Positions 711 through 31,723 of a stretch of 35,494 bases of DNA are shown here, piece by piece. Position 1 is the stretch's first letter, and the number at the start of each line of letters is the position of its first letter. The notes beneath the pieces were generated by a model. That model was given only the letters and a program-made list of their open reading frames with translations. It was not told where the DNA came from and ran no database searches. A program made the translations under genes and the position numbers. This DNA comes from a virus. Lineage: Duplodnaviria > Heunggongvirae > Uroviricota > Caudoviricetes. The stretch covers positions 1-35,494 of IMG/VR virus record IMGVR_UViG_2531839180_000004, one strand, 5' to 3'.

Positions 711-2147
711 ATGAGCACACATGAAATAGCTAGCACACAAGCACAAGGGCAACTCGTATCAACAGATTTCAATCGATTCGAGCAATTTTTGGAGTCGCTT
801 GGATTACCAAAAGAAAATGTTCTTGCTTCAACGATGGAGCGTCAGGTTGTCCAAACAAACTTTCCTCAGTTTGTGATGGCGTTACCAGAAGACGTTAAGC
901 GTGACTCTAGATATTTGTCCAAATTTGCAGCAGCAAGTGCTATTGGTTTGTTTGATGCTGCCTTGAATTATGTCTGGAACGAAGTTGTACTTAACTTACG
1001 AAGAAAGACAGTTATTTATGGTTTGGAACTTTTTTTTGATGCTGCCGTTGGTGGTAAACATAGAGATCTATTTAGTACTGAAAGTGACTTAAGTGGTATT
1101 AAAGATAAAGTTCTTCTTGATAATTGCGCTAAATTAGAATTGATCTCCGACTCAATTTATAAAAAACTCACCCATATTTTAATTATGCGCAATGATCTTG
1201 GTGCCAGTCATCCTAATGATGCGAAAATCAATGCTTATGAACTGATGGGGTGGTTGCAAACATGTGTTCAAGAAGTTATCAATGACACACCTTCAGAGGC
1301 TGCACTGCAAGTTAAGGCTTTTGTTGAGAATCTGCGAAATCAAACTGAAGTCATCAGTAGCTCTAGTTTGCAGCATATGAAAAATGGGCTCAAACAGCTA
1401 CACACAAGAAATTGTGATAATGTCCTTCAGACAATCTTCGGTATGTATATTGGTGCTGGTGCAAATAACATCCTTAAGAAAAATATATCTGAAATTGCTC
1501 CAACAGTTTGGGAATGTGCAGATAATAATATTAAATATAAACTAGGTGTTGCGCTTGATGGTTATCGAACCAACTTGCACAATGATAAATTTTTAGCAGG
1601 TAACGAGTTTTTCGAATTTTGCTCTGGTAATAAATTTAAAACCCTTGAGGCTAGGGTTATTCTGCTTGATGAATATCTGGATGATTTAAGTTCTGCTCAC
1701 AGCGGTTGGGATAATTTCTATAATGAAGTTCCTCATGCTAGGAAAATGTTAAGTTACATTTCCAATGAATCGGATATTCCTAATGAACGTAAAGAAAAAT
1801 TAATTCGTATAATTCTATCGTGTCGTATTGGTAATGGTGTTTCTTATAACACTGGTGTTTCTCCTTTAGGCAAACCCATATACGATTCAATATTGAATAT
1901 GCTGGGCGATGATAATATCGTTCAAGTTATCATTGCATTCTATAATCAAGAGATTTACCACTTATTATCTAACAAAAACTGTAGAAAACATGCTGTGCAA
2001 ATTCTAACGGATATAAGAACTAATGTTGTTAGTGATAAGCTCAAGCAAATCTTAGATTATCTGATTGTAAATGGTGATACTTTGGAAAAAACTATGAAAA
2101 CCACTGAATTTAAAGCTCTAGCATCAAGTCATATAAAATTTAGTTAA
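711..2147 (+). CDS. hypothetical 478-aa cargo protein, AT-rich, orphan; possible HEPN-like abortive-infection protein
   Basis: Long intact ORF with ATG at 711. Markedly AT-rich compared with the flanking phage genes. No Walker or other enzymatic motif seen except RNDLGASH (R-x6-H). Inserted between ogr and D, which are adjacent in P2. Confidence 0.8.
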   Translation: MSTHEIASTQAQGQLVSTDFNRFEQFLESLGLPKENVLASTMERQVVQTNFPQFVMALPEDVKRDSRYLSKFAAASAIGLFDAALNYVWNEVVLNLRRKTVIYGLELFFDAAVGGKHRDLFSTESDLSGIKDKVLLDNCAKLELISDSIYKKLTHILIMRNDLGASHPNDAKINAYELMGWLQTCVQEVINDTPSEAALQVKAFVENLRNQTEVISSSSLQHMKNGLKQLHTRNCDNVLQTIFGMYIGAGANNILKKNISEIAPTVWECADNNIKYKLGVALDGYRTNLHNDKFLAGNEFFEFCSGNKFKTLEARVILLDEYLDDLSSAHSGWDNFYNEVPHARKMLSYISNESDIPNERKEKLIRIILSCRIGNGVSYNTGVSPLGKPIYDSILNMLGDDNIVQVIIAFYNQEIYHLLSNKNCRKHAVQILTDIRTNVVSDKLKQILDYLIVNGDTLEKTMKTTEFKALASSHIKFS

Positions 2148-2330: not shown

Positions 2331-3440
2331 TCATTCTGTTTCTGCTATCCATTCCGGGATTTTTGCCTCAAGCTCAAGCTGCGTGGTAAAGCCGCTGTTA
2401 TCAATGGTGTGCTCAGCTTTTGCAATAATCCAGTCCTGATTATCAATCTCGCTTTTAAATCCTGTTACCGTGCCATGCATTTCGGGGTAGAGTTCTGCGC
2501 GTCCGCGTGCCAGTGTGATGGAGAATGATGCGGCTCCGCGTTGTAGCTGCTGCCACTTTGCCGCCGCTGCGCGTCTTGCTGCCTGCTCGTTCTGATAAGT
2601 CTTGCGTAACACAAACACATTGCCTTCCGCGCCTTCCATATAATCACCTTCACGGCTGCTGCTTTTCTCCTTTTTGGGTTTTGGCGGTTTACGGCGTTTC
2701 ACGCTGACTTTTTTCTTTTTCCCGTAATTAAGATCAAGCCAGTAGGCGCGTACCCCCGTATACGCCTCGCGGTCAGCAATGCGGAACTGATGGCGATCGC
2801 CGCTGCTGCGTGTAATGGCGAACGAGGGTAACGGCTGACCCTGTGCGTTCACGCCACCGCCGGGCATGATGAATAACAGATTGCCGCTTTTTACCGTGGC
2901 GATTGCGCCCAGCATTTCCGCCATGCGCGTAAGGAAGGACATGTCGCTTTCTTCGGTCTGGTCGGCGTGGTCGATTTCGATATCCATCAGCATTTCGCTG
3001 ATTTGCGGTTTCAGACCATACCGATGAGCGATGGCGGATACCACACGCTCAACGGTCACATCATGCCAGGACACCTCACGTTTAACGTTAAATTCATCCC
3101 GAAAATCTGCGCTTCTGGCTGAAACAGTCAGCCTGTCCGGCGGTCCTTCGTGAGCGATTTCATCAACAATGTAAGTGCCTTTTTCTGTCAGCGGTTCTCC
3201 TTTCCAGCCAATGAGAACCGTCAGGCGCGCGCCCCGTGGCGGTAGCTGCAACTGACCATCCGCATCATCCAGCGTGATGGTGAGCTGGTCCGCCTCAAAT
3301 CCCCGGTTGTCGGTCAGTGACAGGCTCATCAGGCGCTCTGCCACACCTGACAGCGTTTTACCCTCCGCGAGAATATCAAAATCCGGCATTTTCACGGGGT
3401 CTGTGCCCTGACTGAGCAATTGCATGGTGGTGTCGGTCAT
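2331..3440 (-). CDS. D: tail protein D (late control gene D family, baseplate hub/VgrG-like)
   Basis: 369 aa from the internal Met MTDTTMQLL, preceded by a GGGAGGGA Shine-Dalgarno. Size and sequence fit the Phage_GPD family; the ORF-track start at 3572 would leave only 25 bp to FI. Confidence 0.85.
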   Translation of the reverse strand: MTDTTMQLLSQGTDPVKMPDFDILAEGKTLSGVAERLMSLSLTDNRGFEADQLTITLDDADGQLQLPPRGARLTVLIGWKGEPLTEKGTYIVDEIAHEGPPDRLTVSARSADFRDEFNVKREVSWHDVTVERVVSAIAHRYGLKPQISEMLMDIEIDHADQTEESDMSFLTRMAEMLGAIATVKSGNLLFIMPGGGVNAQGQPLPSFAITRSSGDRHQFRIADREAYTGVRAYWLDLNYGKKKKVSVKRRKPPKPKKEKSSSREGDYMEGAEGNVFVLRKTYQNEQAARRAAAAKWQQLQRGAASFSITLARGRAELYPEMHGTVTGFKSEIDNQDWIIAKAEHTIDNSGFTTQLELEAKIPEWIAETE

Positions 3441-3496
3441 CTGCTCCCTCCCTGTGCGGCATGGTCGCATGTGCGTGCGGAGGGGGTTACTGCTTT

Positions 3497-3520
3497 TTGT
3501 TGTCGCCTGGTCGGGAGAAC
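3497..3520. promoter_or_regulatory. candidate late-promoter activator site (TTGTTGT-N12-AGAAC) in the D/FI divergent region
   Basis: Motif centred about 55-60 bp upstream of the expected FI transcript start. A near-identical motif occurs between O and P at 20405-20429. Confidence 0.3.
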
Positions 3521-3597
3521 GGCGCAGGGGTGAGATTACGCGCGTGGTGGGTGATGATTGTTGCCGAATCATTTAACGGATACAAGGGGCTGAAGCT

Positions 3598-20490: not shown

Positions 20491-22242
20491 ATGATTCAGG
20501 ACGCTTTTGTGCGCCAGCGTGCGCGGCAACTTTACTGGCAGGGTTATCCGCCCGCAGAAATATCACGTCTGATGGGAATAAACCCGAACACGATTTATGC
20601 GTGGAAAAAACGCGACCAGTGGGATGAAACGCCACCCGTGCAGCGTGTCACGCAGTCCATCGATGCGCGCCTCATCCAGCTCACTGAAAAACAGAATAAA
20701 ACAGGTGGTGACTTCAAGGAAATAGACCTGCTGACCCGGCAGCTTAAAAAACTGCATGATGGCCAGCCGGATGCGACGGCCACAGGAAAGAAAGGCCGGG
20801 CGAAAAAACTCAAAAATCATTTCACGCCGGAACAGATTGCCGCACTGCGGGAAAAAATCATCAGCAGGCTGGAGTGGCATCAGCGGGGCTGGTTTGACTC
20901 CCTGACCCTTTGCAGGGAAGCCGGGATACGTAACAGGATGATCCTGAAATCCCGACAGATTGGGGCGACCTGGTATTTTGCACAGGAAGCTCTGCTGATG
21001 GCGCTGCGTGACGATGTGGCGCAACCTTACCAGCGTAACCAGATTTTTTTGTCTGCGTCGCGTCGTCAGGCGTTCCAGTTTAAAAGCATTATTCAGAAGG
21101 CCGCGGCTGAAGTTGATGTGGAGCTGAAAGGGGGCGATAAAATCATCCTCTCCAACGGCGCAGAGCTGCATTTTCTCGGCACTTCTGCTGCGTCGGCACA
21201 GTCCTATACGGGCAATTTTTATTTTGATGAATTTTTCTGGGTCAGTCGCTTTGCTGAACTGCGCAAGGTAGCTGGCGCTATGGCAACCCTCAGCGGACTG
21301 CGGCGCACCTACTTCTCCACGCCATCCACCGAAACGCACGAGGCATACGCCTACTGGAACGGCGACCGCTGGAACGAGAAAAAGGCCTCGCATAAACGCC
21401 AGCGTTTTTCTGTGGACTGGAAAACGCTGCATAACGGGCTTATCTGCCCTGACCGGACGTGGCGGCAAATTGTCACGCTGGAAGATGTGGTTAATCACGG
21501 CTGGAAACACACCGATATTGACGAAATCCGTGATGAAAACACCGAAGACGAGTTCCTCAATCTCTATATGTGTGAGTTTGTTCGCGAAGGGGAATCGGCA
21601 TTTAACCTGAATATCCTGATTGGCTGCGGTGTTGACGGATACGACGACTGGAAAGACTGGAAACCTTTTGCTCCCCGCCCGATGGGGAATCGTCCGGTAT
21701 GGATTGGGTATGACGCAAACGGCAGCAGTGGCAACGGCGACAGCGGCGCTGTGTCCGTGGTGGTTCCTCCGGCTGTTCCTGGTGGCCGTTTTCGAACGGT
21801 GGAGACGCGACGCGTTCAGGGGCTGGAGTTTGAAGAACAGGCCAGAGTCATTGAAGAGTTCACGTGTCGCTACAACGTGGAACACATCGGCATTGATGTG
21901 ACGGGCGGGAACGGGGAGGCTGTTTATCAGATAGTGAAGCGGTTTTTCCCTGCTGCTATTCCGTACACCTTCACGCTGTCATCCAAACGGTCGCTGGTAC
22001 TGAAAATGCTGCAAATAATGCGTGCCGGACGCTGGGAATACGATCGCGCCGAACGCGAGCTGGTCGCGGCCTTTAACGCCGTGCGTAAGGTGAAAACACC
22101 GGGCGGCTTTATCACTTACGAAACGGACCGCGCGAGGGGGATCAGCCACGGCGACCTTGCGTGGGCAACCATGCTTGCTGTCATTAACGAACCAATTGGC
22201 GGCGAAGGAGAAAACGAGCGTTTCACGGTTATGGAGTTCTGA
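20491..22242 (+). CDS. P: terminase ATPase (large) subunit P
   Basis: 583 aa with a P2 P-like N-terminus and nuclease region. Confidence 0.95.
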   Translation: MIQDAFVRQRARQLYWQGYPPAEISRLMGINPNTIYAWKKRDQWDETPPVQRVTQSIDARLIQLTEKQNKTGGDFKEIDLLTRQLKKLHDGQPDATATGKKGRAKKLKNHFTPEQIAALREKIISRLEWHQRGWFDSLTLCREAGIRNRMILKSRQIGATWYFAQEALLMALRDDVAQPYQRNQIFLSASRRQAFQFKSIIQKAAAEVDVELKGGDKIILSNGAELHFLGTSAASAQSYTGNFYFDEFFWVSRFAELRKVAGAMATLSGLRRTYFSTPSTETHEAYAYWNGDRWNEKKASHKRQRFSVDWKTLHNGLICPDRTWRQIVTLEDVVNHGWKHTDIDEIRDENTEDEFLNLYMCEFVREGESAFNLNILIGCGVDGYDDWKDWKPFAPRPMGNRPVWIGYDANGSSGNGDSGAVSVVVPPAVPGGRFRTVETRRVQGLEFEEQARVIEEFTCRYNVEHIGIDVTGGNGEAVYQIVKRFFPAAIPYTFTLSSKRSLVLKMLQIMRAGRWEYDRAERELVAAFNAVRKVKTPGGFITYETDRARGISHGDLAWATMLAVINEPIGGEGENERFTVMEF

Positions 22243-23288
22243 TGAGCAGAAAAAATAAAAAAGTGCGCATGAGTTCACGCATTGATCTCGCTGATGCGCT
22301 CAGGAAAGAATCATCGCTCAGTGCATTCACATTTGATGGTCCTTATCGCCTGACCGGGCATGACCTGCTGGACAATATGTACTGTGCTGATAACGGGCGG
22401 TGGTATGAAACCCCGGTAGACTGGTACGGTCTGGCAAGAGCTGCCCGGCAAACGTCCTGGCATCAGTCTGCGCTTTACTTTAAGCGCAATGTATTGCTCG
22501 GCTGCTATATTCCGCACCCGCTGCTTTCCCGGCAGGATTTCTCGGCGCTGGCGCTGGACTGGTTTGTGTTCGGTAACGCATTCCTTGAGCTTCGAAGCAA
22601 TATGCTCGGCGAACCGCTTAAATTACGGCACGCCCTGGCGAAATACATGCGACGCGGAAGCGATCTTGAATCATGGTGGTATGTGCAGGATGGCAAGGAT
22701 GCGTTTCAGTTTCGCCCTGGTAAAGTGTGCCACCTGATGAATCCTGACATTAACCAGGAAATCTACGGCATGCCGGAATATCTTGGCGCATTACTCTCGG
22801 CCAGCCTGTCTCATTCGGCGGACATGTTCAGAAAACTGTATTACGACAACGGATCCCACGCCGGGTGCATCATCTACATCGGTGCAGCGCAGGTAAACCG
22901 CGAAAGCATGGACTCCCTGAAAGAAACGCTACAGGGTGCACGTGGTGGTGGTGCGTTTAAAAACGTGCTCATTCATGCCCCCAACGGTGGCAAAGAGGGG
23001 GTGCAAATTTTGCCGTTCCAGCAGATCACCGCAAAGGATGAGTTCATGAATGTTAAGGCGGCATCCCGTGATGATGTGCTGGCTGCGCACCGCGTTCCGC
23101 CGCAACTGATGGGGGCGATGCCGGGCGAAAAAAGTGCGTTTGGTGATGTGGAGAAGGCCGCGCGGGTTTACGCAATTAACGAGCTGATGCCCGTCATGGA
23201 GGCCATGAAGCACATCAATGACTGGCTTGGCGAAGAGGTGATCCGCTTTAACCCTTACGCACTGTTAGATACCCAGCCCACATCCTGA
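22242..23288 (+). CDS. Q: portal (capsid vertex) protein Q
   Basis: 348 aa, P2 Q-like; start overlaps the P stop (TGATG). Confidence 0.95.
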   Translation: MSRKNKKVRMSSRIDLADALRKESSLSAFTFDGPYRLTGHDLLDNMYCADNGRWYETPVDWYGLARAARQTSWHQSALYFKRNVLLGCYIPHPLLSRQDFSALALDWFVFGNAFLELRSNMLGEPLKLRHALAKYMRRGSDLESWWYVQDGKDAFQFRPGKVCHLMNPDINQEIYGMPEYLGALLSASLSHSADMFRKLYYDNGSHAGCIIYIGAAQVNRESMDSLKETLQGARGGGAFKNVLIHAPNGGKEGVQILPFQQITAKDEFMNVKAASRDDVLAAHRVPPQLMGAMPGEKSAFGDVEKAARVYAINELMPVMEAMKHINDWLGEEVIRFNPYALLDTQPTS

Positions 23289-23312
23289 CGCGCTTCGCTT
23301 GTCTGCTGCTTC

Positions 23313-23341
23313 GCCGGGGCATAAAAAATTTATGCCCCGAC
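23313..23341 (+). terminator. hairpin downstream of Q (GGGGCATAAA-AAA-TTTATGCCCC)
   Basis: Perfect 10-bp inverted repeat about 25 bp after the Q stop, but no clear U-tract. Confidence 0.35.
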
Positions 23342-23710
23342 TCTCCAGCTCCTGTATCAATCAGATAATTTCACGACGCTTTTCTGCTTATTGCCATCAT
23401 CGGCGGTCAGACTCTTACGCAATCCCACCGCGTTGACTGCATGTTATTCGCCGCCTCAGTGCGATTTTGACGGCCTTACCTTTCACCCCATCAAATCAGA
23501 ATCCCTCACGTATTTTTCACGCTCAGCGTGAGAAATACAGCCATTCTGTTGTGTCTCTGCGACATCGTTCAGGGAATGCTATTTACCCCCTGAAACGCGG
23601 GCTGTTCCCCCGTCACCTGCGCGCAGAAAAAGCGCGTTTTTTTGTGCACGCACGGATCCCTGACGGATCCAGCCGCCACGCGGGCCAGAAGGGCAAAAAT
23701 TCGTTCAAAA

Positions 23711-23741
23711 AAATTGTGCAAATTTGTGCACTATTGTGCGC
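23711..23741. promoter_or_regulatory. three direct TTGTGC(A/G) repeats at 10-11 bp spacing upstream of the ATPase gene
   Basis: ATTGTGCA, TTTGTGCA and ATTGTGCG roughly one helical turn apart, about 90 bp upstream of the ATG at 23826. Confidence 0.35.
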
Positions 23742-23825
23742 TAAATCGAATCCCTGTATTGCTTACCAGCTCATTACATGTAAACTCAACAGGTAGCAAT
23801 ATTTACTTCCAAAAGGTGGAACAAA

Positions 23826-25025
23826 ATGGCTTTTACAAAAATCAGAATCGATAATCTGTTTTGCTTTGAAAATAGCATCCTTGACTTAAGCTTCTCCAGA
23901 CCCCCGATCAACAGCTCACTGGAAGGTGAGTACATTGATGGATTTGAAAAGTTCTACTTCAAAAAGGTTTGCATCGTTTCTGGTGCTAATGCATCTGGTA
24001 AAACATCTCTTGGTCGCGTGATGCTTTCTGTGTTGCGTTTTCTCAGTAGTGGTGTTTTCAATCCAGAACCGTTAAAAATTACTGACAAAAGAAAACCTGC
24101 ATATATAGAGGTTGACTTTTTCCAGAGTCATTTAAAATGTTTGTTTAGGGCAGGTGTCTGGCTTAGGGCTATGGATGAGTCTGTTGTTGTAGAAAAAATT
24201 GCAATGGCATCTGTTGATTTAAGAAGCTCGGAATCATGCGCAAAGACGACCAAAAGATTGGATGCTGTGTGGGATGCGCAAAAGTTTGAATTAAATGGTC
24301 AAAATAGATTTTTTTCAACCGAAAACGCTAACTCAAAAGAATTTTCCCAATATTTAGAGGATTTGGACTTTGTTCTTGGTTGGCATTTCATTCTATCTGA
24401 AAACCAAGAGAACACGGATAAAATATCACGAATTAAGAAGAATGTGCTTAATAGCATATTAAAAACCTTTGACAATACTGTTAAATCTGTCTCAGGACTC
24501 ACTCTTAAAGATGATGAGGGAAAGGAGGATTTGCAGGGTTATTCAGTAGTCTTCAATAATGGAGATAGAGTTATTATTGATATGGAAGGTGATATAACAA
24601 ATAAAGATAGACTGTCTCGTGGTACTTATGAGGCAGTAAAAATATCCCATCTCCTGTCAGGAGTGCTTGAAGATAAAATAGAAGAGCGAGAGTTCAATTT
24701 CCCTTGCAGTGGGGTGTACTTTTTGGATGAGAAAATGGCCTTCACTCATACTGAATTAGAAAAAATGATGGTCACGCTGATTATATCTAAGCTTTGCAGA
24801 TATGGTCAATTTATATACACCACACATAATTATGATATCTTGAGCTTAGATCTGCCTACGCATTCATATACTTTTACTAAAAAAGTAGATGGTGTAACCA
24901 CTTTTGTTGAAGCTACCACACATCATAAAAAGAATGATCGCAATCTTTTAAATAAAGTAAAAAATGACTGTTTTGCAACAATACCTGACGTTTCATTAAT
25001 CGAAGAGATGCTATTTGAGGATTGA
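23826..25025 (+). CDS. ABC-type/AAA_21-like ATPase (cargo, candidate defence ATPase)
   Basis: Walker A GANASGKTS, Walker B VYFLDE, H-loop-like TTHN. AT-rich. AAGGTGG Shine-Dalgarno before the ATG. Confidence 0.85.
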   Translation: MAFTKIRIDNLFCFENSILDLSFSRPPINSSLEGEYIDGFEKFYFKKVCIVSGANASGKTSLGRVMLSVLRFLSSGVFNPEPLKITDKRKPAYIEVDFFQSHLKCLFRAGVWLRAMDESVVVEKIAMASVDLRSSESCAKTTKRLDAVWDAQKFELNGQNRFFSTENANSKEFSQYLEDLDFVLGWHFILSENQENTDKISRIKKNVLNSILKTFDNTVKSVSGLTLKDDEGKEDLQGYSVVFNNGDRVIIDMEGDITNKDRLSRGTYEAVKISHLLSGVLEDKIEEREFNFPCSGVYFLDEKMAFTHTELEKMMVTLIISKLCRYGQFIYTTHNYDILSLDLPTHSYTFTKKVDGVTTFVEATTHHKKNDRNLLNKVKNDCFATIPDVSLIEEMLFED

Positions 25026-25027
25026 TT

Positions 25028-25564
25028 ATGGCAGTTAAGAAATTTGCTATTATTCTTGTTGAGGGAGATACGGAAAAAGCATTGTTTCAGGATTTCAAAA
25101 CATTGCTAGGCTATCCTATTAAGAAAATAGTAATTGCTAATTTATGGAATGTTAATATAAATAAATACATGCCAGCATTAACCGAAAATAGCGAAATCAT
25201 AGTGGTTTTTGATACGGATAGGATTGAGAATCTTGATAGATTTAAGAATAATCTCAATCTATTAAAGGCGAAAAAACACACAATCCACCTATTTCAACAA
25301 ACAAGCAATTTTGAGGATGAGCTTGCCAATGCTTGTGGTGTAAGTAATAGAAAGTTGTATTCTTGTTTTTGCCCAAAGATCATTTCTGCAGATAACTTCA
25401 AGAATGAATTCATTGCGCTGCGCAACAGGATGATGAAATTAGATGGACTTGGACTAAATAAAACGTTGCTTTGGAGTAGAGGGATTATCCCCCAATTGAG
25501 AGATTATAATTTTCATGTTTCCTCTCATGATGATTATTTTTATAAAAATAATAGTCCTCATTAA
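25028..25564 (+). CDS. Toprim-like small protein (RloB/DUF4276-like) coupled to the ATPase
   Basis: N-terminal FAIILVEGDTE and VVFDTD acidic motifs match the Toprim/OLD-type pattern. ATG 2 bp after the ATPase stop with a GAGGA Shine-Dalgarno. AT-rich. Confidence 0.7.
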   Translation: MAVKKFAIILVEGDTEKALFQDFKTLLGYPIKKIVIANLWNVNINKYMPALTENSEIIVVFDTDRIENLDRFKNNLNLLKAKKHTIHLFQQTSNFEDELANACGVSNRKLYSCFCPKIISADNFKNEFIALRNRMMKLDGLGLNKTLLWSRGIIPQLRDYNFHVSSHDDYFYKNNSPH

Positions 25565-25675
25565 GATAAACATATTTTAAGACACAAGACCGCCAGCTAG
25601 GCGGCCTTATATCTTTGACGCTCGACTCCTTATTTGTTGATTGTTTTCAGAACTGGAAACCTCCCGTGCAAAGTT

Positions 25676-25987
25676 CTAATCGGGAAATAACGCCCGGATA
25701 TTTCCGGCCATCTGACTGGTTATCTGTGCGGTGGGGGCTGTCTGTAACATGTGGCGTTCTGCCCTGGTTTGTGTCACTGATAACGCCTCATCGTCAGCCC
25801 ATGCAGCCAGTCGTTAAGCCTCTGCCGGATTCATTTTCAGAAGTGCCAGCCCGGCCAGAAAAGCCACGCGTTGGCCGCTTTTGCGGGCTTCTGGTGTAAG
25901 GCTGTCCAGCCAGGCGCATGCTTCGCCTTCGTTCTTGACGGCGGCGGGCTTCAGATAGAAACTTATCCGTCTGGTTGGTGTCGTCAT
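25676..25987 (-). pseudogene. ParR-like partition adaptor interrupted by an in-frame TAA
   Basis: From Met MTTPTRRISFYLKP the N-terminus resembles R1 ParR, then an in-frame TAA. The continuation in the same frame (...ITSQMAGNIRALFPD) resembles the ParR C-terminal region. Confidence 0.5.
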
Positions 25988-25991
25988 TGGT

Positions 25992-26951
25992 TTACTCCTT
26001 GTCCATTGCGTACAAACCATTGACCAGAGCAAACTGTGGCACCCCGTCCGCGATGAAAGTCGCATTAACTCCGCAGGCTTCGCGGATAGCGGGTGCCACA
26101 ATCTCCGCCCCTCCACCGACAACCATCACCCGCCCGTAACCCGAAAAACCCGCCAGCGCGCGGATCACTCGTTGTTTCAGTGTTTCTTCCTTTTCACGAA
26201 TAACCGCCATCAGGCTGTCGTAATGCGCGTCATTGTGGATGTGCTGGCGCAGCCAGGCTTCATCATGGCGATGTTCGATAATGGTATTGGCGATGTGGTG
26301 ACTGGTGCGCATACCGTTAGTGGCCATCACCGACAGTACGGCATCGGCCATCAGAGAAACGCCTACGTGTGGATCGCAAAACACCTGGCTGATACCTGCC
26401 AGTTACCCCTGAACCTTTGCCACATCCAGCGTGGTTCCGCCCAAATCCACAATCAGCAGGGATTCAAACGGACTCATGTCAGCCAGTGCCTTAAAGCCAG
26501 CCGGAATGGATTCAGGCATAACCCGCACGTTACGGATAGTGAATGCTTCGCCGTTCTGGTACTCCACCGGGCGCATAACGTTCGCTTTTTTGCGGTTGAT
26601 GTTGGCCATGTCCGGCTGTGCGTTTGTGTCGAAATACTCGCTCAGTGGCAGGGTGACAACCACATCCACCTCCTGTGGCGTGATGCCTGATTTGACCAGC
26701 GCGTGATGAATGGCAATGACATTCACATCGCTGTATTGGTATTGCGTGTCGGTCGTCTGGACAAAGCGATCGCTGACCGGATCAAAACCATAGCGCACGC
26801 CATCAAGCATGTAGTTCGCGGGCTGCGTGCCACCGAACGGCGCAGACCATTCCGACTTGAAGCTGTTCGGGCTGATGGCGTTGCGGCGTTCGCCGTTCTC
26901 AGTCCATGCCAGCTTGATGTTGGTGGAGCCGTCGTCGATACAAATTTTCAT
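25992..26951 (-). pseudogene. ParM/StbA-like actin-type segregation ATPase interrupted by one in-frame stop codon
   Basis: MKICIDDGSTNIKLAW...DLGGTTLD...VMVVGGGAE is colinear with plasmid R1 ParM. ORFs 26403..26951 and 25992..26384 are in the same frame, separated by a single TAA and six sense codons. Confidence 0.8.
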
Positions 26952-26975
26952 GTCGATTTTCCTTATGTTGATTAA

Positions 26976-27100
26976 TTAATCGTTTACGGGATTCTGAAAT
27001 CCCGCTTTTGCCTGTTTTGTGTGCGCTTCATATATCGCGGCGCGTTTTTTGCTCATTTACGGGATTCGTGAGTCCCGTTTCTGTCTGTTTTTTGTTTCCA
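26976..27100. repeat. two copies of a ~45-bp direct repeat, each with an internal GGGATTC...(A/G)TCCC hairpin, upstream of parM and overlapping the 3' end of A
   Basis: TTTACGGGATTCTGAAATCCCGCTTTTGCCTGTTTTGTGT and TTTACGGGATTCGTGAGTCCCGTTTCTGTCTGTTTTTTGT, about 75 bp apart. Confidence 0.5.
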
Positions 27101-29850
27101 CTGGTCAGGCCACCCCGCAGCAGGTCTGCTTTGCGGCGGGCGCGTTCAGTGGTTTCACTGATTCTCTGTGCGTGCTCTGCGTCGCGGATGGCGCGCAGCA
27201 TGTCAGAAAGCACGGTAACGGGGGTTTTCATGGTGTTCTGGTCCTGCTGAAGTGTGGATGCCAGGCGTGCGGCGGCTTCAGGGTCTGATGCCCCCAGCTG
27301 TGCCAGATAGCTGGCGACCGGGTTATGGCGGATCTCCGTGCTGCTTACGCCGTGATTACGGCTCAGGCGCTGCCAGAGCTGCGTGATTCGGCTGTCCGGG
27401 CGGGTATCCGGTTTGCGTACAATTTCAAATCCCTGCGGTGCAATGATGCTGCCGTCAACGTACAGACTGCCGCCCCGTAACAGGTGCTGCATCTGTTGTT
27501 CACCGATATGCAGGCCGAGAGATTCAGCAGACTCCCGCCATTCTTTAGCGAGTAATTCGTGGTTATCAGGCAAAGGCCGCTGCTGTTTGCGGCTCTGTGT
27601 CCAGCTCTGCATTTCATCACGGCTGTTTTTTGCCTGTTTGTCACGAAGCGAACGTATCAGCGCCCGGCGTTCGTGCCGTTTCAGTGAGCGCATCCATTCG
27701 TTCACTTCAACGCCGTCAGGGAGCTGCGGCCACGGTGCTGGCCGTTCTTCCGGCTGTTCTGTCCCGTTGTTGTCCGTTTCCTGTACACGGGGACAGTTAT
27801 TGCCACGAGTCCAAGGGGCGGCAGGGCCGCCCTGAAGGTCAAAACCATTTTCGCGGGCGCTGTCTTCCGCTTCCGGTTTGCGTCTTACCAGCTTCCAGTT
27901 ATCCGGATGCGTGCACACACGGGAGGATTCCCCGATGAGTGGTGACCAGATCCCGTAAATCTGTACGCTCTGTTCGCCGTAATCGTTCAGCTCATCGGCG
28001 AGGTCGTAGGCGGTGCGAATCAGGTAGTCTTTGCGTGGAACAAGTACGCCGCCCTGTTTCTCTATGTAGGTGGCAAAACATCCGGCATCAGCGGCAGCGA
28101 GTACCGCATCCATTGCGTCATCCTTCAGCCGTTGCGGGCCTTCCGGGTTGCGTGCCATCTGGCTGGCAAGGCGGCGGAGTTCACGCCACACCTGACGGGA
28201 AGGGATGCCAAAGAACTGGAACTGGCGGACCCGGTGAAGGCGCGCCCAGCCGATGGCGCGCTCCACGCTCTCGGCCATTGATTTCCCGGTTTCGTGGTCA
28301 ACGCGTGGTTTGCCCGTTTTCGGGTCGATGCCATCCACGGCGCGGCTGTCCAGGTTTTTTCCGATGTAGGTGGCGATGTAGCTGGTTGGCGTACCTTTTG
28401 AGCCGTCTACGTACTCCGCCTTAAAACGCGGAGTTATGTCATTGCCCAGCTCGTGGCGGTCTTCCTGAATGGCAATATCGCAGACGTGGGACACAATGGT
28501 GTCGATTTCTTCCGGATGTGCAAAGACCATCATGTGCCAGTGCACGGTGCCGTCATGATGAGGCTCCACGGTGCGGATGCCATACCAGCGCAGGCCGTCG
28601 CGGTTCAGTTTTTTGCGGACCGCCGCAAAAAACGTGTTAACTAGGTAATCGCTGGAATCGCGCATGGTGGCCCCGTTCCATTTGGGGTTCGGATGACCGT
28701 TCTCCGTTGTTGCGTGGTATTTTGACGGGCAGGTGACAGTCAGAAACACCGCTCTGTCGCCACGGGCTTCGGCCAGAAGTTCCAGCCCTTTCATGGTGGC
28801 CATCATTTCTGCCTTACGGTGAACCGGGTTACTTACTCCCGCGTAATACACTGTCTCGAGATCAATCGTGAACCCGTCTTCGTTTTCCAGCATGAAACTT
28901 TTCAGGAAATCGCGTGTTTTCTCGCACTGTGCGCGAAACTCGCTTAACGCGTCCTGGCTCAGATAGGGCGATGTTTTTCTGGAAACCAGACAGGCGGCGC
29001 GGAGTTGTTCTTCCCGCCACTCGCAACGTAAAAGCCACAGTTTGCGTTTCCACCAGTCCGCACAGGTCAGGCGAAGAATTGCGCCCGGCAGCAGCTCCGT
29101 GTCTGGTTCGTTCCTCCGGTCTTTGTCTGTTGTCAGTGCGTCATAATGTGGAGGCATGGCGTGCAGGTGTAACGCCATGCGGGCCAGCATCTGATACGCC
29201 TTCAGCGTTACATCCATGGTCAGCTCGCCATCGGTCGCGCCAAAGCCATCGCAGAGTTTTTCGAAGGTGCTGCTGAACATCGCCGCCGTCATGGTGGCCA
29301 GCGTCTGTATCTGGTGTTTGTTGAGCTGCGGCAGGTAAAGCAAATCGTCCAGGCGTTCGCGTCCGGCAAGGGAGCGATAGCCCGGTGTCAGCCAGCGTCC
29401 GTCAGTGCGATCCAGACGTTCGAATATTTTGCGCAGGGTTCCGCGCGCGTAGCGTTCAGCCTGCCAGCTCTTTTTGCCTTTCCGGCGATCGGCTTCCTGT
29501 TTTTTGCGCAGGAAGGAGAGGTGGCGAATAAGCGGATCGCGCAGATAGAACGGCAGCAGGCGGAGCGAGGCCATGGCTTCATCCACCGCGCCGCGTGCCT
29601 GTTTTCTGGCGTCTCCTGCCAGTGTGATGGTTTTGTCCTGTTTTTCCTGTGCGTCCAGGCTTTTATTAATCAGGTTGCCCAGCGGCGTTGCGGAGAACGC
29701 CGCATCAGCCATTTCCTGGCGGCGCTCGTTCTCTACCCGGTAGGCATCCAGCCAGGAGGAAAGCGCGGATTCAGGAGCGGGGATCCCCGCTCCTTCACGC
29801 CCCACTGCGTGGCGCGGTTGTTGCCAGTCCCTGATGTACTCCGTTGACAT
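27028..29850 (-). CDS. A: replication initiation protein A (rolling-circle HUH endonuclease)
   Basis: 940 aa with HUH motif VHWHMMVF and Tyr motif SYIATYIGK; P2 A-like, in the A position. Confidence 0.9.
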   Translation of the reverse strand: MSTEYIRDWQQPRHAVGREGAGIPAPESALSSWLDAYRVENERRQEMADAAFSATPLGNLINKSLDAQEKQDKTITLAGDARKQARGAVDEAMASLRLLPFYLRDPLIRHLSFLRKKQEADRRKGKKSWQAERYARGTLRKIFERLDRTDGRWLTPGYRSLAGRERLDDLLYLPQLNKHQIQTLATMTAAMFSSTFEKLCDGFGATDGELTMDVTLKAYQMLARMALHLHAMPPHYDALTTDKDRRNEPDTELLPGAILRLTCADWWKRKLWLLRCEWREEQLRAACLVSRKTSPYLSQDALSEFRAQCEKTRDFLKSFMLENEDGFTIDLETVYYAGVSNPVHRKAEMMATMKGLELLAEARGDRAVFLTVTCPSKYHATTENGHPNPKWNGATMRDSSDYLVNTFFAAVRKKLNRDGLRWYGIRTVEPHHDGTVHWHMMVFAHPEEIDTIVSHVCDIAIQEDRHELGNDITPRFKAEYVDGSKGTPTSYIATYIGKNLDSRAVDGIDPKTGKPRVDHETGKSMAESVERAIGWARLHRVRQFQFFGIPSRQVWRELRRLASQMARNPEGPQRLKDDAMDAVLAAADAGCFATYIEKQGGVLVPRKDYLIRTAYDLADELNDYGEQSVQIYGIWSPLIGESSRVCTHPDNWKLVRRKPEAEDSARENGFDLQGGPAAPWTRGNNCPRVQETDNNGTEQPEERPAPWPQLPDGVEVNEWMRSLKRHERRALIRSLRDKQAKNSRDEMQSWTQSRKQQRPLPDNHELLAKEWRESAESLGLHIGEQQMQHLLRGGSLYVDGSIIAPQGFEIVRKPDTRPDSRITQLWQRLSRNHGVSSTEIRHNPVASYLAQLGASDPEAAARLASTLQQDQNTMKTPVTVLSDMLRAIRDAEHAQRISETTERARRKADLLRGGLTSGNKKQTETGLTNPVNEQKTRRDI

Positions 29851-30892: not shown

Positions 30893-31723
30893 TTACTTCA
30901 CCGGAACAAACGGAACAGCGGTATTACTGGTCATGTATTGCGGCAGCGTGCCGTTCCATTTGTTGATAGCTTCCAGCTCCATAACGCCGGGATTCTGGCG
31001 CAGAGCTTCACCACGCAAACGAATGGCATCGGCTTCAGCCTGGGCTTTTGTACGAATGGCATCAGCCTGTCCGGCAGCTTCTGCGCGCAGCATGTTGGCT
31101 TCTGCTTCGCGTTGCTTGACTTCCTGCTCGCGTTGCAGAGTTTTCTGGTTTGCCGTGACTTTGGCATTAATGCTGTCGATAACGGTTGGCGGGTATTCCG
31201 GCTTACCCACATAAGAGAGGCTCATGACCTGAATGCCGATGGGGGTCATCTCTTCCTGAATATCTTTAAGTGCTGAATCCAGTAGTTCAGACTTACCACC
31301 GTCGATAAACTTATCGGTGGTCATTTTGCTGGCCAGTCGGTTGAGTGCATCGGCGATCTTCTGGCGCAGGTCAGTGTCGGTAATGTCATCCACGCCTTTG
31401 CGGTAGGTTTGAAACACTGTAGTAACTTTGGATGAATCAACCTTGTAGGCCACACCGATGTGATAGCCGATGGTTGTGCCGTCACTCATCTGGAAGCTGA
31501 ACGGCTCATCGTAAGTCTTCATTTGTTTGAAGGTCGGGAAGATGTAAACCTCTGTATTCCAGCCTGTCCAGTAGCGGCCAACGCCAACCACTTCACCGAC
31601 GCCTTTGTCGTCGCCCAGTTTGTTGACTTTGATGCCCACATTACCTGGCTCAACGCGATCGCAGCCAACCAGCAGGATGGCTGCAAAAATCGGGAGAATC
31701 TGAAAGAGTTTGAATTTCTTCAT
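30893..31723 (-). CDS. SPFH/band-7 (stomatin/HflC-like) lipoprotein
   Basis: Signal peptide with lipobox LLVGC, followed by a band-7-like core and a Gln/Ala/Glu-rich coiled-coil tail. Confidence 0.8.
   Translation of the reverse strand: MKKFKLFQILPIFAAILLVGCDRVEPGNVGIKVNKLGDDKGVGEVVGVGRYWTGWNTEVYIFPTFKQMKTYDEPFSFQMSDGTTIGYHIGVAYKVDSSKVTTVFQTYRKGVDDITDTDLRQKIADALNRLASKMTTDKFIDGGKSELLDSALKDIQEEMTPIGIQVMSLSYVGKPEYPPTVIDSINAKVTANQKTLQREQEVKQREAEANMLRAEAAGQADAIRTKAQAEADAIRLRGEALRQNPGVMELEAINKWNGTLPQYMTSNTAVPFVPVK

What the first reader, a model, noticed from the sequence alone, without database searches (positions are those of the whole stretch)
23826..25564. Two-gene ABC-ATPase plus Toprim-like module in the slot where P2 carries old/tin
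Seen in sequence: a 399-aa ATPase (Walker A GANASGKTS, Walker B VYFLDE) is translationally coupled, with a 2-bp spacer and its own GAGGA Shine-Dalgarno, to a 178-aa protein whose N-terminus (ILVEGDTE, VVFDTD) looks like a Toprim/RloB acidic active site. Both genes are strongly AT-rich against a GC-rich phage backbone. Established: between replication gene A and cos/Q, P2 carries the exclusion genes old and tin, and P2 Old is a fused ATPase-Toprim nuclease. Inference: this is either a split, in-trans OLD-like or AbiL-like abortive-infection system, or a divergent member not matching named families. The combined length (577 aa) is close to single-chain OLD. The triple TTGTGC repeat upstream (23711-23741) may be its regulatory site.
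Basis: partly seen in the sequence, partly recalled or inferred. Interest (0 to 1): 0.78.

Follow-up and report, generated by a model that had tools for sequence, protein, structure and literature searches.

The report
AbiL-type ATPase–Toprim phage-defence cassette
A P2-family prophage of E. coli carries, in its known cos-proximal "defence hotspot", a two-gene cassette (ABC ATPase plus small Toprim nuclease) of the AbiL/OLD kind that most likely kills or arrests the cell when another phage infects; the kind, the slot and this exact cassette are already catalogued, but it has never been tested.

Summary
There is a 399-aa ABC ATPase (23826-25025) and a 178-aa protein (25028-25564), separated by TGA-tt-ATG, with a GAGGA Shine-Dalgarno inside the ATPase's last codons. 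The pair has 35% GC against a 54% GC backbone.

The host element is a P88-like (Xuanwuvirus, Peduoviridae) prophage, not P2 itself. The slot is still the gpQ-cos-gpA hotspot where P2 carries old and tin.

The ATPase matches PADLOC AbiLi (1e-27; 39 of 39 relatives). Its model resembles PtuA, Rad50 and Thermus OLD.

The small protein passes Pfam OLD-like_TOPRIM narrowly. Its family matches AbiLii in 85 of 126 members and conserves the OLD-type catalytic set (EGxTE, DxD, ExE, Lys). Fold searches gave only generic Rossmann-like hits.

The gene pair and its tight coupling are kept in every context examined, all prophage-like, four of them P2-like Q-A slots.

The TTGTGC x3 repeat is real, but it belongs to the conserved phage backbone at the cassette's left boundary, not to the cassette.

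Rousset et al. 2022 already list this exact cassette (Table S5B, system 90, 37 occurrences), apparently untested.

Verdict: an ordinary but uncharacterised new member of a known kind. Interest is modest.

The parts
23714..23739 (+). Three TTGTGC units at an exact 10-bp period. This is the last element of the conserved phage backbone, marking the left boundary of the variable slot; it is not part of the cargo.
   Evidence: The pattern search finds both overlapping dimers. Megablast matches from other E. coli prophages all end at query position 440, which is window 23739. P88 identity runs 22001-23739. The repeat is kept in P88_4B11, which has other cargo, with divergence starting immediately after it. 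It is also kept in a Citrobacter P2-like phage.
23740..25675 (+). Horizontally acquired cargo cassette of about 1.94 kb and 35% GC: leader, ATPase gene, Toprim gene and a terminator-like hairpin.
   Evidence: Similarity to P88 is lost between 23739 and 25677. GC is 0.353 against 0.541 for the rest of the window. The full cassette occurs in only 6 of 5426 E. coli genomes. The right edge abuts the stop codon of the parR-like gene (25676).
23759..23786 (+). Weak candidate sigma-70 promoter, TTGCTT-16 nt-TAAACT, within the cassette-specific leader. This is an inference only.
   Evidence: Read from the sequence. Both hexamers and the spacing are conserved in the 87%-identical Citrobacter copy, which sits in a different backbone. 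The consensus scan did not call any + strand promoter here.
23813..23819 (+). Shine-Dalgarno AAGGTGG for the ATPase gene, 6 nt before the ATG.
   Evidence: Read from the sequence. The block ACTTCCAAAAGGTGGAAC is invariant in the E. coli, Citrobacter and Erwinia copies.
23826..25025 (+). ABC-type (SMC/Rad50-like) ATPase of 399 aa, AbiLi-like; the presumed sensor/regulator.
   Evidence: Pfam AAA_15 at 3.2e-08, above the cut-off. PADLOC AbiLi at 1.1e-27, mad3 at 2.7e-11, AriA at 5e-08. All 39 relatives hit AbiLi. The AF2 model has pLDDT 88.6. Foldseek top hits are PtuA (1.7e-10), retron PtuA-like ATPases, Rad50/SbcC and Thermus OLD 6p74 (6e-08). Walker A, signature, Walker B and H-loop residues are invariant.
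25017..25021 (+). GAGGA Shine-Dalgarno for the small gene, embedded in the ATPase's last codons (TTT GAG GAT = FED).
   Evidence: Read from the sequence. The same TTTGAGGA + stop + 2-4 nt + ATG junction is kept in the Citrobacter, Erwinia and Psychrobacter homologues. A distant E. coli homologue has a 1-nt overlap instead.
25028..25564 (+). Small stand-alone Toprim protein (178 aa here, 172 aa in other copies), AbiLii-like; the presumed nuclease effector.
   Evidence: Pfam OLD-like_TOPRIM at 5.1e-05, 24.2 bits against a cut-off of 23.2. PADLOC GajA Toprim region at 6.5e-05, AbiLii at 7.6e-05, mad4 at 2.5e-04. Family-wide, AbiLii hits 85 of 126 members and OLD-like_TOPRIM hits 18 of 126. The AF2 model (pLDDT 84.7) has a beta-alpha-beta-alpha-beta-alpha-beta core. 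Conserved residues are E12, G13, E16, D62, D64, E96, E98 and K125. hhalign against the class-1 OLD Toprim profile gives E = 3.7e-05, against 0.55 for the OLD ATPase control.
25590..25604 (+). Terminator-like GC hairpin (CCGCCAGCTAGGCGG), 26 nt after the stop of the small gene.
   Evidence: Consensus scan. The T-tail is weak.

Best explanation
This is a two-gene anti-phage (abortive-infection type) cassette of the AbiL / split-OLD kind. It is carried as lysogenic-conversion cargo in the cos-proximal gpQ-gpA hotspot of a P88-like (P2-family) E. coli prophage.

Shown here:
- An intact ABC ATPase gene is translationally coupled to an intact small Toprim gene.
- The pair is conserved as a unit across distant relatives on prophages and prophage-like regions.
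- The Toprim protein keeps a full OLD-type two-metal catalytic set.

Inferred by analogy with PARIS (AriA/AriB), P2 Old and Gabija:
- In the lysogen the two proteins are made together and form a complex in which the ATPase keeps the nuclease inactive.
- A cue from an infecting phage (a phage protein, or a replication or DNA-end state) is sensed by the ATPase.
- ATP binding or hydrolysis then releases or activates the Toprim nuclease.
- The nuclease cuts nucleic acid, either tRNA (as for AriB and, per a 2026 preprint, P2 Old) or DNA (as for GajA and Bp/Ts OLD in vitro).
- This stops growth of the infected cell and of the competing phage.
For: Domains:
- ATPase: AbiLi 1.1e-27 and AAA_15 above the Pfam cut-off. 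All 39 relatives match AbiLi. The model resembles defence ABC ATPases, namely PtuA, Rad50/SbcC and TsOLD.
- Small protein: OLD-like_TOPRIM above the Pfam gathering score. AbiLii matches 85 of 126 family members. Every multi-member Pfam hit lies in Toprim-related families: OLD-like_TOPRIM 18, RloB 9, DUF3226 4.
- The best PDB profile hit is 1t6t (E = 0.039), which Schiltz et al. describe as the Aquifex putative RNase M5 and include in their superposition of Toprim structures.

Catalytic set:
- E12-x3-E16, D62-x-D64, E96-x-E98 and K125 are invariant or at least 90% conserved.
- These mirror BpOLD E400/E404, D455/D457, T506/E508 and K562, which are needed for nuclease activity (PMC6755086).
- Class-1 OLD proteins have the same EGKTE...DxD pattern.

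Operon:
- The 2-bp spacer and internal GAGGA are conserved in the Citrobacter, Erwinia and Psychrobacter copies.
- The downstream partner belongs to the same family in all four contexts checked (E = 1e-52 to 1e-57).

Context:
- The Q-A locus is an established defence hotspot (PMC9122126 section 10). P2 carries old-tin there, transcribed from next to cos.
- The cassette is rare, AT-rich cargo.
- Homologues sit in P2-like Q-A slots in Citrobacter and Erwinia, next to a lambdoid integrase in E. coli, and in a Psychrobacter region with a CI-like repressor (HTH_3/Peptidase_S24), a Cap4-family nuclease and a transposase.
- Distant relatives occur in an Acinetobacter phage and an Acinetobacter plasmid.

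Literature: AbiL and MADS3-4 are grouped with PARIS as split ABC + TOPRIM defences (PMC11464382; preprint 10.64898/2026.07.10.737580).
Against: - No phenotype exists for this cassette. It is listed but, as far as the held tables show, was not among the systems evaluated by Rousset et al..
- A related ATPase + TOPRIM candidate, HEC-01, gave no protection in its only test.
- Fold searches of the small protein gave only generic alpha/beta folds.
- The Pfam margin is 1 bit. The window protein's own AbiLii hit is weak (7.6e-05).
- The profile-profile match to OLD is confident only over 19 columns around EGxTE.
- Similarity to the lactococcal AbiL prototype itself was not shown. tblastn found no Lactococcus plasmid hit.
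- Complex formation, trigger and substrate are pure analogy.
- This copy has a 3'-terminal frameshift, and the neighbouring parM and parR-like genes carry nonsense mutations. This particular prophage may therefore be decaying, or the assembly may contain errors.
Confidence: 0.75

Rival explanations
1. It is a toxin-antitoxin-like addiction module that stabilises the prophage or its plasmid form, rather than excluding other phages. The Toprim nuclease would be the toxin and the ATPase its restraint.
For: The cassette lies directly beside a ParM/ParR-type partition system. Rousset et al. suggest that such systems perhaps allow these prophages to be maintained as plasmids. The FEMS review describes PARIS as behaving like a type II TA pair.
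Against: The same cassette occurs in P2-like phages without the partition genes (Citrobacter and Erwinia) and beside a lambdoid integrase, so it is not tied to ParMR. In the original PARIS study, deleting either gene was non-toxic. The slot is documented for defence cargo. The two roles are not mutually exclusive.
Confidence: 0.1
2. In this window the cassette is an inactive, decaying remnant. It belongs to a real family but is non-functional in this copy.
For: A 1-nt deletion alters the C-terminus of the small protein. The adjacent parM (Q183 to stop) and parR-like gene (Y58 to stop) are interrupted compared with strain 504838. No strong promoter was called upstream.
Against: Both reading frames are full length. 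Every conserved catalytic and nucleotide-binding residue is intact. The frameshift replaces only the last residue and adds six. The cassette is 99.0-99.6% identical to the six other E. coli copies. A homopolymer indel could be a sequencing error.
Confidence: 0.1
3. It serves the phage's own DNA metabolism, for example as a RecF/RecR-like or SbcCD-like recombination or repair pair, since RecF is an ABC ATPase and RecR has a Toprim domain.
For: The domain pairing superficially resembles RecF-RecR. Rad50/SbcC appear among the ATPase's structural neighbours.
Against: There is no Pfam or NCBIfam hit to RecF or RecR, and the only SMC_N hit is insignificant (E = 0.22). The small protein has no match to RecR in the family-wide scan. 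The cassette is absent from almost all relatives of this phage, so it is dispensable. The best matches are defence ATPases.
Confidence: 0.03

Closest known systems
AbiL (AbiLi + AbiLii) abortive-infection system, as modelled in PADLOC
   Same: It is a two-gene operon with the ABC ATPase first and a small Toprim/OLD-like protein second. The ATPase hits the AbiLi model at 1.1e-27 (39 of 39 relatives). The small-protein family hits AbiLii in 85 of 126 members. The AbiLii model is 170 positions long, close to this family's roughly 172 aa.
   Different: The window protein's own AbiLii score is weak (7.6e-05). No pairwise similarity to a Lactococcus plasmid gene was found, so kinship with the experimentally studied prototype is only via the HMMs. 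The host is a Gram-negative prophage hotspot rather than a lactococcal plasmid. AbiL's own mechanism is still unknown (PMC13064643).
P2 Old (class 1 OLD nuclease)
   Same: It occupies the same genomic slot in a related phage, has the same orientation away from cos, and has a similar total size (586 against 577 aa). It shares an ABC ATPase plus a Toprim with the same EGxTE...DxD motifs.
   Different: Old is a single polypeptide. Its ATPase carries a dimerisation insert, and its Toprim has a long segment between DxD and the last conserved Glu/Lys. Sequence similarity is limited to the motifs: hhalign is confident over about 19 columns for Toprim, and the ATPase comparison gives E = 2e-04.
PARIS (AriA/AriB; proposed class 4 OLD)
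   Same: It is a split ABC ATPase + Toprim pair, often phage- or satellite-borne next to cos. The ATPase shows partial AriA hits (5e-08; 34 of 39 relatives). It is the best-understood mechanistic model: sensor ATPase, released Toprim, tRNA cleavage.
   Different: AriB is a DUF4435 protein of about 35 kDa. The small protein here is about 20 kDa, with no DUF4435 or AriB hit.
MADS mad3/mad4 and PADLOC candidates HEC-01, PDC-M12, PDC-M38
   Same: The ATPase hits mad3 (2.7e-11; 38 of 39 relatives) and PDC-M12A. The small protein hits mad4 (2.5e-04). A few family members hit HEC-01B and PDC-M38B.
   Different: MADS is a multi-gene, methylation-associated system (models up to mad8 appear in PADLOC), whereas only two genes lie in this cargo. 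HEC-01 gave no defence when tested.
Rousset et al. 2022, P2-hotspot system 90
   Same: It is the same cassette. Protein 1 differs by one residue (LEGLDF against LEDLDF). Protein 2 is the 172-aa allele. It is annotated 'AAA_15/AAA_21/SMC_N | RloB', with 37 occurrences among 18,150 loci.
   Different: That entry is a catalogue line with no name, note or phenotype.

Membership tests
AbiL (PADLOC definition) | Adjacent, co-directional ATPase gene followed by a small nuclease gene | tested here: met
   Genes at 23826-25025 and 25028-25564, same strand, 2-bp spacer. The arrangement is kept in 4 other contexts.
AbiL (PADLOC definition) | First protein matches the AbiLi profile | tested here: met
   PDLC02335 at E = 1.1e-27, 95 bits. 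39 of 39 relatives match, best 6e-32.
AbiL (PADLOC definition) | Second protein matches the AbiLii profile | tested here: inconclusive
   The window protein scores E = 7.6e-05, 21.4 bits. 85 of 126 family members match, best 1e-07. PADLOC's own calling thresholds could not be applied.
AbiL (PADLOC definition) | Homology to the L. lactis AbiL prototype proteins | tested here: inconclusive
   tblastn of the ATPase against 72,556 plasmids at E <= 0.01 found only an Acinetobacter plasmid. I could not confirm that the prototype plasmid is in that collection.
AbiL (PADLOC definition) | Abortive-infection or phage-resistance phenotype requiring both genes | not testable with these tools
   Needs cloning and phage challenge. 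The cassette is not among the sequences in Rousset Table S2.
OLD-family nucleases | ABC ATPase with Walker A Lys, signature motif, Walker B and H-loop | tested here: met
   G53, N55, G58, K59, S264, G266, T267, D301, E302 and H334 are invariant. Foldseek hits TsOLD 6p74 at 6.4e-08.
OLD-family nucleases | Toprim domain with the invariant Glu and DxD, plus the extra acidic residues and Lys of the two-metal site | tested here: met
   PF20469 scores 24.2 bits against a cut-off of 23.2. E12, E16, D62, D64, E96, E98 and K125 are conserved, matching the BpOLD set and the class-1 EGKTE/DxD pattern.
OLD-family nucleases | Toprim fold recognisably similar to solved OLD, GajA or AriB structures | tested here: inconclusive
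OLD-family nucleases | ATPase and Toprim on one polypeptide (classes 1-3) | tested here: not met
   There are two separate ORFs with a stop codon between them. All of the best 150 family representatives listed are 85-199 aa, so none is a fused ATPase-Toprim protein.
PARIS | AriB-type DUF4435 Toprim partner | tested here: not met
   No PF14491 or AriB hit for the window protein or among the top families of 126 relatives.
RloB (PF13707) | Score at or above the Pfam gathering threshold | tested here: not met
   17.6 bits against a cut-off of 31.5. Only 9 of 126 relatives hit at E <= 0.01.
Gabija | GajB UvrD-like helicase partner | tested here: not met
   The cargo interval 23740-25675 holds only the two genes.
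P2-family Q-A defence hotspot cargo | Variable insert between the portal gene Q/cos and replication gene A, with conserved flanks | tested here: met
   Portal at 22242-23288 and GPA at 27028-29850. Flanks are conserved in 1133 genomes and the cargo is present in 6. P88 carries different genes in the slot. The hotspot is defined in PMC9122126.

The most novel reading that the evidence does not exclude
The roughly 170-aa partner would define a minimal, free-standing OLD-type Toprim nuclease. Its helical part, carrying the catalytic Lys, follows the Toprim core rather than being inserted in it, and its trigger and substrate could differ from those of PARIS, Old and Gabija.

Separately, the phased TTGTGC repeats, which are conserved at the backbone edge whatever the cargo, could be a phage-encoded control or packaging element. 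That element might set expression of any cassette dropped into the slot, or mark the recombination boundary for cassette swapping.
Probability: 0.15. Interest if true: 0.55.

Novelty: new member of a known kind. Interest (0 to 1): 0.3.

Why it matters
If active, the cassette would be one more prophage-borne immunity module shaping which phages can infect the few E. coli lineages that carry it.

It would also be a compact (399 + 172 aa), genetically tractable representative of the AbiL branch of ABC-ATPase/Toprim defences. The mechanism of that branch is still unknown, unlike those of PARIS, Gabija and now P2 Old.

It does not open a new question. The hotspot, the domain pairing and this very cassette are already in the literature.

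Tried and rejected
- **Direct sequence search of PDB.** Single sequences gave nothing meaningful. The family profile gave only 1t6t at E = 0.039.
- **NCBIfam.** No hit was near threshold. The weak Toprim-region match to the retron Eco8 effector (0.0019) is only consistent with the assignment.
- **P2 cos.** The 19-nt P2 cohesive end is absent, even allowing 3 mismatches. The Q-to-cassette region has no meaningful similarity to the P2 cos junction. I therefore could not place cos. The only clue is that one linear P88-like record ends at the equivalent of 23695/23696.
- **Promoter.** The consensus scan found no + strand sigma-70 site between 23700 and 23826. TTGCTT-16-TAAACT is a hand-picked weak candidate.
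- **TTGTGC as the cassette operator.** Rejected, because the repeat is backbone.
- **RecF/RecR-like reading.** Rejected for lack of any profile support.
- **Prototype AbiL.** A search for lactococcal AbiL in the plasmid collection found nothing.
- **Full-text searches for 'AbiL'.** These mostly matched 'ability'.
Full report
**1. What is in the sequence**

The two ORFs are as described: 23826..25025 (+, 399 aa) and 25028..25564 (+, 178 aa from the ATG; an in-frame TTG at 25022 would give 180 aa).

The junction reads ...TTT GAG GAT TGA tt ATG...:
- The stop codon is at 25023-25025.
- The spacer is 2 bp.
- GAGGA lies at 25017-25021, 6 nt before the ATG.

A second ribosome-binding site, AAGGTGG (23813-23819), precedes the ATPase gene. 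A GC hairpin follows the small gene at 25590-25604.

The cargo is 35.3% GC against 54.1% for the rest of the window.

**2. Which phage and which slot**

The flanks are a portal gene (22242-23288), a ParM/ParR-type partition pair, and a 940-aa GPA-family replication gene (27028-29850, minus strand). The window ends in an integrase.

The backbone is 92-96% identical to Escherichia phage P88 and its relatives (Xuanwuvirus, Peduoviridae). The element is therefore P2-family but not P2.

The geometry matches P2. There, tin and old lie between A and cos, and the old-tin transcript starts about 150 bp from the cohesive end, reading away from it.

Rousset et al. 2022 showed that this gpA-gpQ, cos-proximal locus is a diversity hotspot rich in defence systems. 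About a quarter of P2-likes carry a partition system there.

**3. Cargo boundaries**

Against P88, identity runs 22001-23739 and 25677-27200. The 1.94 kb between those blocks is replaced in P88 by other genes.

In 5426 complete E. coli genomes, the first 440 bases of my query (window 23300-23739) occur in 1133 genomes. The whole cassette occurs in only 6, at 99.0-99.6% identity. Every listed partial match stops at exactly 23739.

The right edge coincides with the stop codon of the parR-like gene.

**4. The TTGTGC repeat**

Three TTGTGC units sit at 23714, 23724 and 23734, an exact 10-bp period. They are the last backbone bases before the break.

The repeat is retained in:
- P88_4B11, where the sequence diverges immediately afterwards into unrelated cargo;
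- a Citrobacter P2-like phage, whose surrounding backbone is only loosely similar.

The repeat is therefore real and probably functional, but it belongs to the phage rather than to the cassette. Its role (packaging, regulation of the slot, or a recombination boundary) is unknown.

One linear P88-like record starts and ends at the equivalent of 23695/23696. This hints that cos is nearby, but the P2 cohesive-end sequence itself is absent.

The 86-bp cassette-specific leader is conserved with the Citrobacter copy. It contains a weak TTGCTT-16-TAAACT candidate promoter, which the consensus scan did not call.

**5. The ATPase**

Profile hits:
- Pfam AAA_15 passes its cut-off (3.2e-08).
- PADLOC gives AbiLi at 1.1e-27, then mad3, AriA and PDC-M12A.
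- Among 39 relatives at 33-87% identity, all 39 hit AbiLi, 38 hit mad3 and 34 hit AriA.

Conserved residues: Walker A (G53, N55, G58, K59), the ABC signature LSRGT (S264, G266, T267), Walker B (D301, E302) and the H-loop His334 are all invariant.

Structure: the AlphaFold model (pLDDT 88.6, pTM 0.88) is closest to the following:
- Septu PtuA (1.7e-10);
- PtuA-like retron ATPases;
- Rad50/SbcC;
- the Thermus OLD nuclease (6.4e-08).

It is a compact ABC ATPase of the defence clade.

**6. The small protein**

Profile hits, all mapping to residues 7-96:
- Pfam OLD-like_TOPRIM is just above its gathering score (24.2 against 23.2 bits). RloB is below threshold (17.6 against 31.5 bits).
- PADLOC hits the Toprim region of GajA (6.5e-05), AbiLii (7.6e-05) and mad4 (2.5e-04).
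- NCBIfam gives a weak hit to the Toprim region of the retron Eco8 effector.

Family size: an exhaustive profile search found 345 cluster representatives. All of the best 150 listed are short (85-199 aa, mostly 157-199), so none is a fused ATPase-Toprim protein.

Conservation in a 126-sequence alignment:
- Invariant: D62, D64 and E96.
- At least 90% conserved: E12, G13, E16, N38, N75, Q91, E98, K125 and W149.

Member-by-member scans: AbiLii hits 85 of 126 members. In Pfam, OLD-like_TOPRIM hits 18, RloB 9 and DUF3226 4, and no unrelated family recurs.

The model (pLDDT 84.7) has a four-strand alternating beta/alpha core:
- E12 lies just after strand 1.
- E16 lies in helix 1.
- D62 and D64 lie at the end of strand 3.
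- E96 and E98 lie in the helix after strand 4.
- K125 lies in a later helix.

This pattern reproduces the experimentally defined two-metal site of Burkholderia OLD: E400/E404, D455/D457, T506/E508 and K562 (PMC6755086). Class-1 OLD proteins, including P2 Old, have the same EGKTE...DxD pattern.

Profile-profile comparison:
- Against a class-1 OLD Toprim alignment, E = 3.7e-05 (probability 71%).
- Against the OLD ATPase half as a control, E = 0.55.
- The confident stretch covers only 19 columns.

The best PDB profile hit is 1t6t, the Aquifex Toprim/RNase M5-like protein, at E = 0.039.

**7. The pair is a unit, and it is mobile**

The ATPase homologues I inspected had the following contexts:

| ATPase identity | Host | Context |
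|---|---|---|
| 87% | Citrobacter | Q-A slot of a different P2-like phage |
| 62% | Erwinia | degraded P2-like element, between a truncated portal gene and gpA |
| 43% | E. coli | beside a lambdoid integrase |
| 36-37% | Psychrobacter | region with a CI-like repressor, a Cap4-family nuclease and a transposase |

In each case the next gene encodes a member of the same small-protein family (E = 1e-52 to 1e-57). The junction is tight: TTTGAGGA + stop + 2-4 nt + ATG, or a 1-nt overlap.

Isolated phages and plasmids hold only distant relatives, namely Acinetobacter phage Ab105-3phi and one Acinetobacter plasmid.

**8. What is already known**

Table S5B of Rousset et al. lists this very cassette as system 90, 'AAA_15/AAA_21/SMC_N | RloB', with 37 occurrences. 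Protein 1 differs by one residue and protein 2 is the 172-aa allele. The entry has no note. Its sequence is not among the systems in their Table S2 of evaluated systems.

RefSeq calls the small protein a TOPRIM nucleotidyl transferase/hydrolase domain protein.

Recent work groups AbiL and MADS3-4 with PARIS as split ABC + TOPRIM defences. A 2026 review notes that whether AbiL works like PARIS is untested.

**9. Most likely mechanism**

Shown:
- The two genes are co-translated.
- Both have intact catalytic residues.
- They are conserved as a pair and sit on mobile elements in defence slots.

Inferred by analogy with PARIS, Old and Gabija:
- The ATPase senses an infection cue and, through ATP binding or hydrolysis, unleashes the Toprim nuclease on tRNA or DNA.
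- This aborts the infection.

I put about 0.75 on 'functional anti-phage cassette of the AbiL/split-OLD kind'. I place much less confidence on any particular trigger or substrate.

The rivals considered (an addiction module, a decayed copy, phage DNA metabolism) are discussed separately, with the evidence for and against each.

**10. Verdict**

The main interpretation is right in kind, but the phage is P88-like, the repeat is backbone, and the structural test was inconclusive.

This is a new, untested member of a known kind, in a known hotspot, and already catalogued. Interest is modest.

Noticed in passing
window 25676-26951 (minus strand): Both partition genes next to the cassette carry premature stops relative to intact copies in E. 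coli 504838. parM has Q183 to stop (stop codon at 26403-26405). The parR-like Plasmid_stab_B gene has Y58 to stop (25814-25816). Together with the T-run deletion near 25536, that makes three lesions in about 1.5 kb, which could reflect either prophage decay or assembly errors.
   Followed up: partly
window 711-2147 (+): A 478-aa ORF lies in a second AT-rich island (33-37% GC), just beyond the tail gene D (2331-3572, minus strand) near the other prophage end. It has no Pfam or PADLOC hit and may be another cargo slot holding an unknown gene.
   Followed up: partly
window 23640-23739; L010/L013 (P2 cos-old interval): Further TGTGCA copies (TTTTGTGCAC at 23640-23649) lie upstream of the triple repeat. 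P2 itself has three ATGCA(A/C) units about 10-11 bp apart just upstream of the old-tin promoter. Phased short repeats between cos and the hotspot may therefore be a general P2-family feature.
   Followed up: no
window 23695/23696; L011/L012 (LR595891): The linear record of phage P88_4B11 begins and ends at the position equivalent to window 23695/23696, 18 bp before the first TTGTGC. This may mark the cohesive end of P88-like phages. The P2 cos sequence is absent from the window.
   Followed up: partly
window 25014-25030 and homologous junctions in L003, L008, L009: The ATPase's conserved C-terminal residues F-E-D are encoded by TTT GAG GAT, which also supplies the GAGGA Shine-Dalgarno for the downstream gene. 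This dual use is conserved from E. coli to Psychrobacter.
   Followed up: yes
window 30893-31723 (minus strand): An SPFH/Band-7 domain protein (276 aa) is encoded in the early region of the prophage, and also in P88. It is an accessory gene of unknown role.
   Followed up: no
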